This document shows, one piece after another, positions 9,001 to 12,000 of a stretch of DNA of 64,000 bases (position 1 is its first letter; each line of letters starts with the position of its first letter). A program made the position numbers. Source of the stretch: Phallusia mammillata (taxonomy: Eukaryota); assembly GCA_965637545.1 (NCBI GenBank), contig OZ281498.1, positions 10,354,001 to 10,418,000 on the forward strand, in the 5' to 3' direction.

Positions 9001-12000
9001 ATACCACACAATTGTAAAATTTAAGGTACAACATCAAATTATTTTTTTAACAAAAGTTAAGAAACAACATGAAATAATTTTAAAATTATTATTTTTTCAA
9101 CAAATGTTAAGGTACAACACCAAAGAACAAAGCAATTATTTTCATGCAAGGTAAAGAATCACATTGACATGCGATCACCGCGAATGATTCATTTGAATTT
9201 CAATTAATGGAATGGCGCATGCGTTGACGATGATCAAAAACCCGATCAGAATCGGTGAGTCGTCATCCAATGAGAGGTAGTTGAGTTTCCGGACATAGAT
9301 GACGTCGTCAGGTCGGGTGCAGAGCAAATATCAGAGAAGAAAATGGAGAAACAAAATTCATGCATGAGATGTTATTGATTTGGTAGGTGCATGATTTTGG
9401 TTAAATTAGTTTTTAAGTGCATGCTGTTAATTACTAATATTAACTACAGCGAAGTTAGAATTCTTTTAAACACCAATTGTTAAGTTGGTCTTTTTCGTGG
9501 TACGTTCGGTCATTAAATTAAAAAGTAAAATCAATTTCTTTTCTGTTGCCACGTCACCTTACATTGAACCGTAATTCTCGTTGATAATGATTCGAAAATA
9601 ATGCAAGCATTCGGTTTTAAAGTAACACATTCGATGTATATTTAGCTCACCATTTGTTGTTGTTGTTTCAACCAGATTGCGTCTTCTCGTTCGTCAATTA
9701 CTTGCTTCTCAAGTTTCTGTCTCAAATTTTCTTCCTCCATTTTTTTCTGGCGCAGTTTTTCTTCCGCCTCGTGCCTCACTATTTCCTTTAACCAGAAAAA
9801 AACAAACATTTATTGCCAGCACAAGTTTCAATCTAACTTCTAGTTATGTCGAAATCACAACACATATTTAATGTGATCAAAATGACAACTTTAGTAATCT
9901 TTCGTAAACCATCAACAGCATGGCTTAAAGTTACGATCACTGTTTGCCTTTTTAACTATATATTTAATGTGTGTGGTGTTTTAGATTTACGAGTCACCAG
10001 AGACTCAGTACGAGAAATAGACAACAGTCGCGTATAATAGCAGACTGAAAACTTAGAATTCATTCTATTTGAATAAGGTAATGAAAATGCCTATCACTTA
10101 GATCAAACATATATATATTAAAAAAACGGTGGATGACTTGAGACTTGTTAATATTTTCAGTGATATGTTTAGTTTAAATTGAGACCAAGTGTTACCTCGG
10201 CGGTCATTATCTTGGGGCCAGCTTTCGGGGGCACGGCGGGTAAATTATGTGGGTGGTACATCCCCTGGGGCCCAGTGGGTTGGTAGACGGGACCTCCACT
10301 TTGTGGAGGGTAGCTTCTGTTGTTGGCAGCTGGAAAACCGGGTCTTGTGGGCTGTAAAACAATAACAACTTGATGACTAACGCAAAACAAGTTGTTTCAT
10401 GTATATAATAAATGAAAATAATTCAGCAAGAATTAGTGATATATAAGCTGTTGCTGCCAGGCATAATACCAACTTTATAGAGCTCTTCTGGCAATTGTAT
10501 TTTTGCACTGACGTTTTGACGTCCTACACAGGTCGGCTTCAAAGTCGGTGCAAACATACAATTGCCAGAAGAGCTCTATAAAGTTGATATTCATAAAGTG
10601 ATTATCCTATATTAAAAAGCTTTGGATAATTCAATACACAGAACTTTTTGGGTGTTTGGAAATGTGAAAATTAGTTCTAGGCATCGGGTTGTGACGAATA
10701 TGTGTAAAATTAATTCAGCGCATATTGTATACAACAAGGTAAAATAAAAACGTTTTGGTCAATTAAACCACAATAGACATTTTTGGTGTAAGAAACGTAG
10801 TGTTAACTGTTTGGCAATGTGTGAAAATTAAGCCTATAGGCATCGTTTTTTGACGAGTATGTGTAAATTTATATCAGCGTATATTGTGTCTGTGTTGTAG
10901 TTGCTTCCTTCGACTGTACACAGTAGCCAATACAGTATACATTCCTGCGTTAGCACTCGAAAATTACCGTGTTCTTCGAAACGCGCCCGCTGTTTCCGCG
11001 TCTGATTTTCCTGACGCGTGCGTAAAACGCGTCGGGTTCGGTGACGCCCGATGACGCCACGAGCCCCGGTCCCGTTTCGGCCTCGAAAGTTTTTTTCGCA
11101 TCAATGTGGTTGTCATTTTCGTCCCGTTTGGTTTCGTTCGAGTTAAGAGACAGCGACACTTGAGCGAGAAGACGAAGGGTTTCGTTCAGTTTTTCTATCT
11201 CTGCATTAGGGTTGGCGGGCACCATTACCCCCACTGACATTTTCATGCTTGGTTCGGCAATGGTTTCAGTTGCACAAAAACAGAGTTAACAAGAAAAACT
11301 AATTGTGGTTCTGTTTTACGCTGCAAAAAAATGCAAAACTGTAAAGTAAAATCTCCGAAATGCTACTTTTCCAAAAGTTTCGACCAAAATCCACAAATAT
11401 TTGGTGAAATTTGCTGGAAATTAAGATGCCACGAACGCCTACAAAACTTGATAATGCTATCGACCACTAACTGAAAGACTAAAATCAGCTGATACTTTAA
11501 AACAGAAGCGCCTAAACAGTGGGTAAATGTCCCTCTTTCAGCACCAGCTGTTACACTTGATTCCCACAGGCGGCAGCTGCTTTCGCCGCAAACTTTTCGA
11601 TGCACCGCCTAATGAGGATTGCAGTTTGGCAAAACAAGCCATTGGAGTACGGTTTCCGCCTGACACTGTGGTAAACAATCTCAAAACCTCGTACTTGTTT
11701 CCGGCAATAGCAATCACTCACGCTGTATTCTGCGGGCCGATACATTTCTGCGCACTAAGTTACTTGCCTATAGGTCGTGATATGGCGCAAAAAGCAATCT
11801 TCCACGTAGCGCCAATTTAGGGCCAAAACTCATCAAGGCGTGCCCTGCAACTCGCGGGAATTTCCAAACTAAACTTTTACGCAATATCCTTCTATGCATT
11901 GCACACAAACCATCAATTCTATATGAGTTTCTACAGAAACATGCTTTCGTTTGTCGGCTTTTAATCACGACTTTTTTGACACTTAAACCACTTTAACTCG

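What the first reader, a model, noticed from the sequence alone, without database searches (positions are those of the whole stretch)
10968..11320. Exon C: a UTR-bearing start exon for a short FAT-only FAK isoform
Seen: a very strong acceptor at 11320 is followed by 74 nt containing an in-frame stop, then ATG, 93 codons and a phase-0 donor that fits acceptor 10351. Splicing from the upstream FAK exon 19380 would hit a stop after about 25 codons, so it cannot be an ordinary cassette. Inference: it is the second exon of a transcript from an intronic promoter or, if this is a tunicate, a spliced-leader trans-splice acceptor.
Basis: partly seen in the sequence, partly recalled or inferred. Interest (0 to 1): 0.68.

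Follow-up and report, generated by a model that had tools for sequence, protein, structure and literature searches.

The report
Start exon of kinase-less FAK isoform
Inside the focal adhesion kinase gene of a sea squirt lies a small, conserved exon with its own start codon that most likely begins a short protein carrying only the kinase's adhesion-targeting tail, a tunicate counterpart of the vertebrate inhibitor FRNK.

Summary
On the minus strand there is an acceptor at 11320, a 74-nt leader with no ATG and an in-frame TAA, an ATG at 11246, 93 codons, and a phase-0 donor at 10968 that fits acceptor 10351. Entering from FAK exon 19449-19380 gives a stop after 25 codons.

The window is the Phallusia mammillata FAK locus, so it is a tunicate.

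ORF length alone is not above chance, but the peptide is conserved. Three real homologues turned up among 1.84 billion representatives.

- All three begin at the same MKMS/MS start.
- In all three, similarity stops at the donor.
- One is a deposited 428-aa Clavelina lepadiformis protein. It joins the exon-C-like start to PSRQGFPP and runs through the FAT domain.

The exon is therefore very probably a real alternative first coding exon of a 440-codon, FRNK-like, kinase-less isoform.

No transcript was seen. How the 5' end forms (spliced leader, cis leader exon or local start) is untested, and the function is inferred by analogy. I call it a new variant of a known kind, of moderate interest.

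The parts
11321..11345 (-). Polypyrimidine tract and AG of the acceptor in front of exon C. It is a candidate spliced-leader or cis acceptor.
   Evidence: Sequence. It scores 12.6 bits, and 14 of 3258 minus-strand AGs score as high or higher. Its use in RNA was not tested.
10968..11320 (-).
   Evidence: It is single-copy in the window.
11247..11320 (-). The 74-nt 5' leader. It has no ATG and carries an in-frame TAA at 11288-11286.
11244..11246 (-). Start codon (context gcaagcATGA, with A at -3). A second ATG lies two codons downstream.
   Evidence: The homologues begin MKMS (P0002, P0004) or MS (P0005) at the same place.
10968..11246 (-). Unique coding part of 93 codons. Residues 1-34 are conserved and contain a predicted helix, 35-72 are variable, and 73-91 form a conserved Tyr-plus-basic segment.
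   Evidence: phmmer E-values are 1.8e-12, 1.7e-9 and 1.1e-7. There are 32 invariant columns: 21 in residues 1-34, 11 in 73-91, none in 35-72. tblastn with P0005 gives 47.9% identity at E 8.5e-13. AF2 on the Clavelina protein predicts helix 12-34.
10966..10967 (-). GT of the phase-0 donor.
   Evidence: It scores 6.2 bits, against a true-site median of 6.4. In all three read-through ORFs the residue after the last conserved one is Val (GTN), and similarity ends there.
10196..10351 (-). First shared FAK exon (52 codons, phase 0 at both ends), reading PTRPGFPAANN...IMTAE.
   Evidence: P0005 residues 90-142 map here at 57% identity.
9651..9785 (-). Shared exon (45 codons) for a charged helical region.
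8834..8933 (-). Shared exon (100 nt).
8655..8752 (-). Shared proline-rich exon (PPPSMPPAKPPR...).
   Evidence: It matches the start of Phallusia protein P0006.
7630..7785 (-). FAT domain exon 1.
6952..7141 (-). FAT domain exon 2.
   Evidence: It is 100% identical to P. mammillata FAK1 fragment P0006.
6304..6512 (-). FAT domain exon 3 with the C-terminal tail and the TGA stop (6306-6304).
   Evidence: It is 100% identical over 68 aa to P0006.
19380..19449 (-). Upstream constitutive FAK exon (...VILEDFEQQLDERHKLEAGPPPK) with a phase-0 donor. In the full-length mRNA it joins 10351. Joining it to 11320 would give a stop after 25 codons.
   Evidence: PPPK|PSRPGFP is contiguous in the 6 long tunicate models that matched the junction pattern, out of 13 proteins examined.

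Best explanation
Exon C is a real alternative first coding exon. It sits in the roughly 9-kb intron of the Phallusia mammillata FAK gene, between the exon ending ...GPPPK (19380) and the exon starting PTRPGFP (10351).

Shown by sequence and comparison:
- The ORF starts at ATG 11246 behind an in-frame stop.
- It encodes 93 residues that are conserved across ascidian orders.
- It ends at a phase-0 donor, and that donor is the point where conservation stops.
- In Clavelina, a deposited model joins the equivalent exon to the rest of the FAK C-terminus.

Inferred:
- In Phallusia the exon is spliced 10968>10351 and on through seven shared exons. By summed exon lengths this gives a 440-codon protein with no FERM and no kinase domain. 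It keeps the second proline-rich stretch and the FAT four-helix bundle.
- By analogy with vertebrate FRNK, such a protein would go to FAT-binding sites (paxillin and talin, as recalled) without signalling. It would then compete with, or scaffold beside, full-length FAK. The unique head (an amphipathic helix plus a Tyr-basic segment) would add its own regulation.
- The transcript must start inside the intron. My best guess is that the strong acceptor at 11320, unpaired in such a transcript, receives the tunicate spliced leader. A short cis-spliced leader exon is the next best option.
For: Conservation
- phmmer of the 93-aa peptide against 1.84 billion representatives gave 4 hits at E <= 0.001. 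Three are true homologues: P0002 (92 aa, 52%, 1.8e-12), P0004 (121 aa, 54%, 1.7e-9) and P0005 (428 aa, 53%, 1.1e-7). The fourth, P0003, is a 19-fold repeat protein that matches only the basic segment.
- The three-way alignment has 32 invariant columns, clustered at residues 1-34 and 73-91. The middle varies in length but keeps the frame.

Start
- All homologues begin at the same MKMS or MS.
- The window has a TAA 14 codons upstream and no ATG in the leader.

Donor
- After the last conserved residue, all three unspliced ORFs read Val (GTN). They then diverge and stop after 5, 3 or 30 residues.

Spliced model
- P0005 is CAK8691157.1 of Clavelina lepadiformis. It has Focal_AT at 260-390 with E 1.4e-47.
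- Its residues 1-87 map to window 11240-10974, and 90-142 map to 10351-10196.
- Exon C is as conserved (47.9%) as the neighbouring linker exons (57%, 45.5%), while the FAT exons are at about 76%.

Splice signals
- The acceptor scores 12.6 bits and the donor 6.2 bits against this gene's own sites.
- The joint arrangement is seen in 1 of 150 simulated sequences.

Precedent in the same locus
- Ciona intestinalis LOC144745014 (P0015, 1022 aa, Focal_AT only) starts with the orthologue of the window's 612-aa ORF in the preceding intron and runs into the FAK C-terminus.

Background from papers (passages read)
- FRNK comes from an internal promoter in a FAK intron, with a 5' leader exon (PMC1570463).
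- About half or more of Ciona genes are SL trans-spliced, preferentially at the first functional acceptor. Outrons are mostly under 500 bp (PMC4691747; PMC11155486).
Against: - No RNA evidence of any kind was available for Phallusia.
- The single spliced model (Clavelina) is a deposited prediction whose basis, ab initio or RNA, I could not see.
- A profile search of proteins of 213-2000 aa found only that one model, among 8000 scored candidates. The Ciona, Styela and Clavelina RefSeq-type FAK proteins present in that collection therefore do not carry the exon.
- No Ciona or Styela homologue of the peptide appeared.
- Neither the 93-aa peptide nor the 98-aa unspliced ORF of Phallusia is in the protein collection.
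- ORF length alone is within chance.
- The window holds one other instance of the signal arrangement, antisense to a retrotransposon.
- No promoter was identified. CpG observed/expected is about 1.0 across the whole window, so the value of 1.53 over exon C says little.
- The FRNK-like function is analogy only. The isoform would lack the first half of the PPPK|PTRPG proline motif that FRNK keeps.
Confidence: 0.66

Rival explanations
1. The 5' end is not made by the spliced leader. Instead, a short non-coding leader exon further upstream in the intron is cis-spliced to 11320, as in the FRNK arrangement. Alternatively, transcription starts just upstream of or inside exon C and the acceptor is not used. 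The protein product is the same as in the best explanation.
For: - Good donors lie upstream in the same intron: 12256 (CAA|GTAAGT, 9.7 bits) and 11764 (7.4 bits).
- A TATAAA sits at 12428-12423, 172 nt before donor 12256.
- FRNK uses a 5' leader exon (PMC1570463).
- In Ciona some start-site clusters overlap trans-splice acceptor sites (PMC4691747).
Against: - TATAAA and GT matches are common in DNA of 40% G+C, and none was tested.
- The candidate leader would carry upstream ATGs.
- Most Ciona genes are trans-spliced at their first functional acceptor (PMC11155486).
Confidence: 0.3
2. Exon C mainly acts as a truncating or poison cassette of the full-length FAK mRNA. Cis-splicing 19380>11320 adds 25 codons and a stop. 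The result is either a FERM-kinase protein without proline-rich regions and FAT, or a target for nonsense-mediated decay. The downstream ORF would then be incidental.
For: - On the full-length pre-mRNA the strong acceptor is paired with donor 19380, and paired acceptors are cis-spliced in preference (PMC1488885).
- The stop after 25 codons is real.
- Primate FAK has a comparable 91-nt exon 23a with an in-frame stop. It gives a kinase-intact, FAT-less FAK (PMC1570463).
Against: - This does not explain protein-level conservation of the other frame from its Met to the donor in three organisms.
- It does not explain the Clavelina model.
- It may coexist with the start-exon role.
Confidence: 0.12
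3. The ORF is a small stand-alone gene nested in the FAK intron. It is translated unspliced (98 aa in Phallusia) and is not joined to FAK exons.
For: - P0002 (92 aa) and P0004 (121 aa) are unspliced ORF calls.
- The peptide has no Pfam family, which is common for orphan small proteins.
Against: - Similarity ends exactly at the GT, and the tails after it differ in length and sequence (5, 3 and 30 residues).
- The donor phase fits the next FAK exon.
- The Clavelina model splices the exon.
Confidence: 0.07
4. Nothing functional is here: a chance ORF next to chance splice-like signals, with the database hits being over-predictions on intronic DNA.
For: - ORFs of this length are frequent: 26 in the window, against about 11 expected.
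- A second signal arrangement exists at 3664-3314.
- The hits come from automatic predictions.
Against: - E-values are 1e-7 to 1e-12 against 1.84 billion proteins.
- Identity between different ascidian orders is about 50%, equal to that of the neighbouring constitutive linker exons.
- The start and the boundary are conserved.
Confidence: 0.04
5. Exon C is an in-frame internal cassette of full-length FAK. It would use another acceptor downstream of the TAA, for example ...aatgcagag|ATAGAA, which is in phase 0.
For: A phase-0 AG exists inside the ORF, after codon 16.
Against: - Residues 1-16 upstream of that AG are conserved, including MKMS.
- No acceptor-like AG inside the exon scores above 4.2 bits.
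- No protein of 213-2000 aa has the segment internally.
- PPPK|PSRPGFP is contiguous in the 6 long models that matched the junction pattern.
Confidence: 0.02

Closest known systems
FRNK (FAK-related non-kinase) of vertebrates
   Same: An autonomously expressed C-terminal FAK product that lacks the FERM and kinase domains and keeps FAT. It is made from a start inside a FAK intron, with a leader ahead of the start codon (PMC1570463, passages).
   Different: - The FRNK leader exon is non-coding and its ATG lies in a shared FAK exon. Here the ATG and 93 unique residues lie in the special exon.
- Exon C joins after ...PPPK, so the first proline motif is cut in half. That this motif is the p130Cas SH3 site is recalled, not tested.
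- The 5' end may be a spliced leader.
- Whether the intron corresponds to the FRNK intron (exons 22/23) was not mapped. By recollection, the preceding intron (with the 612-aa ORF) corresponds better.
Clavelina lepadiformis CAK8691157.1 / UniRef A0ABP0GHF7, 'Focal AT domain-containing protein' (P0005, 428 aa)
   Same: Same architecture and same junction: an exon-C-like head of 88 residues, then PSRQGFPP..., then FAT. Most likely the orthologous isoform.
   Different: - It comes from another ascidian order.
- The head is about 48-53% identical.
- The model starts at the second Met.
- It lacks the Asn-Ser of the RRGNSGR segment.
- It is an unnamed deposited prediction, and I found no paper on it.
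Ciona intestinalis LOC144745014 (P0015, 1022 aa, Focal_AT only)
   Same: A second kinase-less product of the tunicate FAK locus, annotated as its own locus. It shows that internal starts in this gene are recognised by a genome annotation.
   Different: It starts with a different, roughly 600-aa first exon (the orthologue of window 21952-20312, at 26% identity) in the preceding intron. It includes the 19449-type exon and the complete PPPKPSRPG motif. It has no exon-C-like sequence.
PRNK (PYK2-related non-kinase)
   Same: A kinase-less C-terminal product of the FAK paralogue, cited as a sign that dual products are an old feature of the family (PMC1570463).
   Different: It comes from the vertebrate paralogue. 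Its details were not examined here.
Primate FAK exon 23a
   Same: An alternative exon with an in-frame stop, located after the kinase-coding exons. Its inclusion gives FAT-less FAK (PMC1570463). This is what cis inclusion of exon C would do.
   Different: No downstream conserved ORF or start role is described for it, and there is no sequence relation.

Membership tests
FAK/PTK2 gene, C-terminal part with Focal_AT (PF03623) | The downstream exons encode the focal adhesion targeting domain. | tested here: met
   The window FAT exon is 100% identical to P. mammillata FAK1 fragment P0006, which carries PF03623. P0006 maps to four window exons. Ciona FAK P0016 maps exon by exon from the end of FERM to the stop.
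FRNK-type autonomous C-terminal FAK isoform | The protein lacks the FERM and kinase domains and retains FAT. | tested here: met
   This was tested in silico only. An in-frame stop lies before ATG 11246. The phase-0 join to 10351 and seven shared exons give 1320 nt, or 440 codons, by summed lengths. The Clavelina homologue has Focal_AT as its only Pfam domain.
FRNK-type autonomous C-terminal FAK isoform | The transcript starts at a promoter inside a FAK intron. | not testable with these tools
   No RNA or start-site data could be read. Only candidate signals were seen.
FRNK-type autonomous C-terminal FAK isoform | The leader exon is non-coding and the start codon lies in a shared FAK exon. | tested here: not met
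   The start codon and 93 unique codons lie in exon C itself.
FRNK-type autonomous C-terminal FAK isoform | It sits in the same intron as the vertebrate FRNK promoter (between exons 22 and 23). | not tested
   The paper gives exon numbers only, its supplements are closed, and vertebrate exon limits were not mapped onto the tunicate protein.
FRNK-type autonomous C-terminal FAK isoform | It acts as an inhibitor or competitor of FAK at adhesions. | not testable with these tools
   This is inference from the retained FAT domain and from FRNK (PMC1570463).
SL trans-spliced tunicate mRNA | The organism uses spliced-leader trans-splicing. | not tested
   The window is an ascidian. Frequent trans-splicing is described for Ciona and stated for ascidians in general (PMC11155486; PMC5753386). 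No Phallusia-specific data were seen.
SL trans-spliced tunicate mRNA | The acceptor has no paired donor upstream in the same transcript. | not testable with these tools
   This depends on where transcription starts. On the full-length FAK pre-mRNA the acceptor is paired with donor 19380.
SL trans-spliced tunicate mRNA | cDNA reads show the leader joined at the acceptor. | not testable with these tools
   No read data were available.
Paxillin-type LD motif (LDxLLxxL, consensus recalled) | The head matches the motif. | tested here: not met
   The strict pattern is absent in all three homologues. Only a relaxed pattern matches: LNETLRLL, LNETLRLL and LNDTLQLL.

The most novel reading that the evidence does not exclude
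The tunicate FAK locus may be a nested set of at least three internal-start units, each adding its own N-terminal region to progressively shorter parts of FAK.

- The 803-aa ORF runs into the Tyr-397-type exon.
- The 612-aa ORF, whose Ciona orthologue is LOC144745014, starts a second unit.
- Exon C starts the third.

All three heads share short motifs: a Tyr-x-x-Val-basic segment and an EKLNE..LL helix.

On this reading exon C is not just a leader. It would be a regulatory module of independent, tunicate-specific origin. Its conserved amphipathic, LD-like helix would dock on, or compete at, the LD-binding faces of its own FAT domain, or would direct localisation. FRNK-style self-inhibition of FAK signalling would then have arisen separately in the sister group of vertebrates, delivered by spliced-leader trans-splicing at an intronic acceptor.
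Probability: 0.15. Interest if true: 0.7.

Novelty: new variant of a known kind. Interest (0 to 1): 0.45.

Why it matters
FRNK is the classic endogenous inhibitor of FAK. In the passages I read it is described only for vertebrates (chicken, mouse, human). The authors of PMC1570463 already suggested that dual products are an old feature of the family.

A conserved kinase-less FAK isoform in ascidians would make it possible to test whether 'FAK plus its own FAT-only antagonist' predates vertebrates or arose more than once. It is built differently: it has its own coding head, lies in another intron, and may use a spliced leader. Ascidian embryos allow such tests, because isoform-specific reporters and knock-downs are routine there.

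It also has a practical consequence. The exon seems to be missing from the Phallusia, Ciona and Styela protein sets I could search, so expression and knock-down studies of tunicate FAK may be blind to it. Reagents aimed at 3' exons would hit both products.

I found no paper on this:
- FRNK + ascidian: 1 paper, off topic.
- FRNK + Ciona: 1 paper, PMC1570463.
- focal adhesion kinase + Phallusia: 3 papers, listings only, off topic by title.
- FRNK + invertebrate: 8 papers, 7 listed, none on a natural invertebrate FRNK by title.

Tried and rejected
Searches with the exon C peptide
- A word-index search for proteins of 164-2000 aa scored none of 236 candidates. It missed even P0005, so it is weak evidence.
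- Pfam gave 0 families.
- The ESM Atlas gave no usable hit.
- PDB sequences gave two FlgK chains at E 0.08-0.09, taken as chance.
- Exact look-ups of the 93-aa peptide and of the 98-aa unspliced ORF found neither in the collection.

Statistics and signals
- ORF length as evidence was rejected: 26 observed against 11.4 +/- 3.4 simulated.
- CpG observed/expected as a promoter mark was rejected as uninformative. The window median is 0.99, exon C is 1.53, and many other windows are at or above 1.3.
- I asked whether all three internal starts share a strong acceptor just upstream. They do not: 8.6 bits at 95 nt for the 803-aa ORF, nothing above 4.8 bits for the 612-aa ORF, and 12.6 bits for exon C.
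- Exon C as part of a repeat was rejected. It is single-copy, and the only repeat is an intronic one of about 80 bp. One search found no direct-repeat families.
- The Rfam scan of the window found one tRNA-like match far from exon C.

Structure and binding
- Docking of the exon C head (residues 1-45) on the Phallusia FAT domain (P0006 residues 28-168) was tried with complex prediction. The verdict was 'no answer' (score 0.02, mark 0.34), the controls were not run and the alignments were not used. This counts neither for nor against binding.
- AF2 of the Clavelina protein gave only a moderate-confidence helix 12-34 (block pLDDT 66-67), a disordered stretch from about 35 to 140, and a confident FAT bundle.

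Origin of the head
- Descent of exon C from the other N-terminal regions by duplication stays undecided. Local blastp gave only short matches at E 0.01-1 in a tiny database, and the motif order differs.
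Full report
**1. What is at the coordinates**

- The pyrimidine-rich acceptor gttttgcatttttttgcag ends at 11321, so the exon starts at 11320.
- The next 74 nt hold no ATG. They include a TAA at 11288-11286 that is in frame with the ATG at 11246.
- From that ATG, 93 codons run to 10968. They are followed by gtaatt.
- The donor is phase 0, and so is acceptor 10351 (ttttacag|CCC ACA AGA..., reading PTRPGFP).
- The FAK exon upstream (19449-19380) ends on a whole codon (CCG AAG|gtacat). If it were joined to 11320, the frame would stop after 25 codons.
- No frame is open across the exon.

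**2. Context**

The window is the 3' two thirds of a FAK gene on the minus strand.
- One FAT exon is 100% identical to 'Focal adhesion kinase 1 [Phallusia mammillata]' (P0006). That 204-aa fragment maps to the last four exons. HSPs below 100% run past the splice sites, by my reading.
- Ciona FAK (P0016) maps exon by exon from the end of FERM (62.6 kb) through the kinase exons (47.6-36.9 kb) to the stop at 6304.
- The organism is therefore an ascidian (Phlebobranchia). It is not human.
- I fixed 17 acceptors and 16 donors of the constitutive exons and two further exons.
- In the full-length mRNA, 19380 joins 10351 and restores ...PPPK|PTRPGFP. That motif is contiguous in the 6 long tunicate models that matched the junction pattern, out of 13 proteins examined.

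**3. Is it more than chance?**

ORF length is not: the window has 26 stop-to-stop ORFs of at least 111 codons, against 11.4 +/- 3.4 in simulations.

The splice signals are good by this gene's own standard.
- The acceptor scores 12.6 bits, above 15 of the 17 true sites. Fourteen of 3258 AGs score as high or higher.
- The donor scores 6.2 bits, equal to the median true site. 118 of 4179 GTs score as high or higher.

The whole arrangement appears in 1 of 150 simulated sequences. It also appears once more in the real window, antisense to a retrotransposon ORF, and the thresholds were set after the fact.

**4. Conservation settles that the exon is real**

phmmer of the peptide against 1.84 billion cluster representatives found four proteins at E <= 0.001.
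- One (P0003) is a large repeat protein that matches only the basic segment. I discount it.
- The other three start at the same place: MKMSLDF..., MKMSVGV... and MSVGV....
- They share 32 invariant columns with the window peptide: 21 in residues 1-34, 11 in residues 73-91, and none in between, where lengths differ.
- Two of them are unspliced ORF calls. After the last conserved residue each reads Val, a GTN codon, as does the window (VIFEC*). Then they diverge and stop. That pattern is what a conserved phase-0 GT donor would leave.

**5. The Clavelina model**

The third hit (P0005) is a deposited protein of Clavelina lepadiformis, CAK8691157.1, named 'Focal AT domain-containing protein' by UniRef. 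Clavelina belongs to another order, Aplousobranchia.
- It joins the exon-C-like head directly to PSRQGFPPNRYPP... and continues through both linker exons, the proline-rich stretch and the FAT domain. Focal_AT spans 260-390 with E 1.4e-47.
- By tblastn, its residues 1-87 lie on window 11240-10974 and residues 90-142 on 10351-10196.
- Exon C (47.9% identity) is as conserved as the constitutive linker exons beside it (57% and 45.5%). The FAT exons are at about 76%.

**6. What could not be shown**

- I had no RNA data.
- The basis of the Clavelina model is unknown to me.
- A profile search among proteins of 213-2000 aa found only that model. The FAK proteins of Ciona, Styela and the RefSeq-type Clavelina set that are in the collection therefore lack the exon.
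- No Ciona or Styela homologue appeared.
- The Phallusia peptide and its unspliced ORF are absent from the collection.
By summed lengths, the coding exons give 1320 nt, or 440 codons.

**7. How the 5' end may form**

In Ciona, SL trans-splicing is described for acceptors with no donor upstream in the same transcript (PMC1488885, passages). It occurs preferentially at the first functional acceptor, with outrons mostly under 500 bp (PMC11155486; PMC4691747).
- On the full-length FAK pre-mRNA, acceptor 11320 is paired with donor 19380. Cis-splicing there would give the 25-codon truncation. This resembles primate exon 23a, which gives kinase-intact, FAT-less FAK (PMC1570463).
- The only candidates I saw are donors at 12256 (9.7 bits) and 11764 (7.4 bits) and a TATAAA at 12428-12423. 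None was tested.
- CpG content is uninformative.
- My estimate, given that the isoform exists: spliced leader at 11320 about 0.45, cis leader exon about 0.3, start at or inside the exon about 0.25.

**8. The protein**

- AF2 on the Clavelina protein gives a helix at 12-34 with moderate confidence (block pLDDT 66-67), a disordered stretch to about 140, a long charged helix at 141-188, and a confident four-helix FAT bundle at 269-395.
- The helix region is amphipathic in all three homologues: the 18-residue hydrophobic moment there is about 0.4, and it is the maximum in Phallusia, at residues 17-34.
- It fits a relaxed but not the strict LD pattern, and it fits a class-1b export-signal pattern. 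Both consensus patterns are recalled from memory.
- The C-terminal conserved segment is Y-[AS]-x-V-x-K-I-R-R-G.
- The mechanism I commit to is FRNK-like. The protein would occupy FAT-binding sites without kinase activity, and its head would add localisation or self-regulation.
- It differs from FRNK in three ways. The start codon is in the special exon, there are 93 unique residues, and it lacks the PPPK half of the first proline motif.

**9. Other internal starts in the locus**

- The 612-aa ORF at 22084-20246 is the orthologue of the head of Ciona LOC144745014 (P0015: 1022 aa, Focal_AT only). Its donor (AACCG|gtaatg) fits the one-base start of exon 19449.
- The 803-aa ORF at 50472-48061 reads in frame through the acceptor of the DDYAEITEDM exon.
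- Exon C is therefore one of several nested starts.
- All three heads carry a Y-x-x-V-basic motif. A pattern derived after the fact hits 4 times in the window against 0.21 expected, and three of the four hits are in these ORFs.
- The 803-aa ORF also has SEAEKLNELDQLL, which resembles exon C's AEIEKLNETLRLL (weak E-values).

**10. Verdict**

It is open on the way the 5' end is made and on function.
- It is a new variant of a known kind (FRNK-type products), of moderate interest.
- I found no paper on a tunicate FRNK-like product. The supplements of the papers, which I could not see, may hold exon maps that bear on intron equivalence.

Noticed in passing
window 20246-22084, minus strand: A 612-aa open frame lies in the intron before exon 19449. 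It is the orthologue (26% identity over about 600 aa, E 8e-24) of the N-terminal part of Ciona intestinalis LOC144745014, a 1022-aa Focal_AT-only protein. Its donor AACCG|gtaatg at about 20250 fits the phase of exon 19449. It looks like a second kinase-less internal-start isoform.
   Followed up: partly
window 48061-50472, minus strand: An 803-aa serine-rich open frame starts MATSPKQPMPAYARVKKK. It runs in frame through the acceptor (ttttcctctcgcag) of the DDYAEITEDM (Tyr-397-type) exon. It may be a FERM-less, kinase-containing isoform with its own head. It has no Pfam family, and only its last 40 or so residues match other FAKs.
   Followed up: partly
window 50404-50421, 21293-21310, 11007-11024 (minus strand); also 30843-30860: A motif Y-[AST]-x-V-[basic/polar]-K recurs in all three alternative heads and in the N-terminal extensions of Ciona and Clavelina FAK. 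It hits the window 4 times against 0.21 expected, but the pattern was derived after the fact. The 803-aa ORF also carries SEAEKLNELDQLLGDF, an LD-motif-like helix that resembles exon C residues 15-27.
   Followed up: partly
window 54114-58471, plus strand: ORFs with leucine-rich-repeat, immunoglobulin-like and transmembrane-like sequences lie on the opposite strand. They look like a separate gene nested in the FAK intron between the exons at 59.7 kb and 48.1 kb.
   Followed up: no
window 3323-5392, plus strand: Two adjoining long ORFs (271 and 417 aa) have reverse-transcriptase-like sequence. This is a non-LTR retrotransposon remnant downstream of the FAK 3' end. Antisense to it (3664-3314) sits the only other 'acceptor, ATG, ORF, donor' arrangement in the window.
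   Followed up: no
window 10465-10515 and 10541-10591: An inverted repeat with 51-nt arms, 92% complementary and 25 nt apart, lies in the intron between exon C and exon 10351. It could be a hairpin-forming element or a small transposon.
   Followed up: no
window 10653-10728 and 10808-10887: A direct repeat of about 80 bp, 80% identical, lies in the same intron just downstream of the exon C donor.
   Followed up: no
window 23488-23561, minus strand: A tRNA-like match (Rfam RF00005, 36.3 bits), either a tRNA gene or a tRNA-derived repeat, lies in the large intron.
   Followed up: no
window 12423-12428 and 12256, minus strand: A TATAAA lies 172 nt upstream of the best donor-like site in the intron (CAA|GTAAGT, 9.7 bits). 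Together they could be a leader exon for exon C, but it would carry short upstream ORFs. This is purely a candidate.
   Followed up: no
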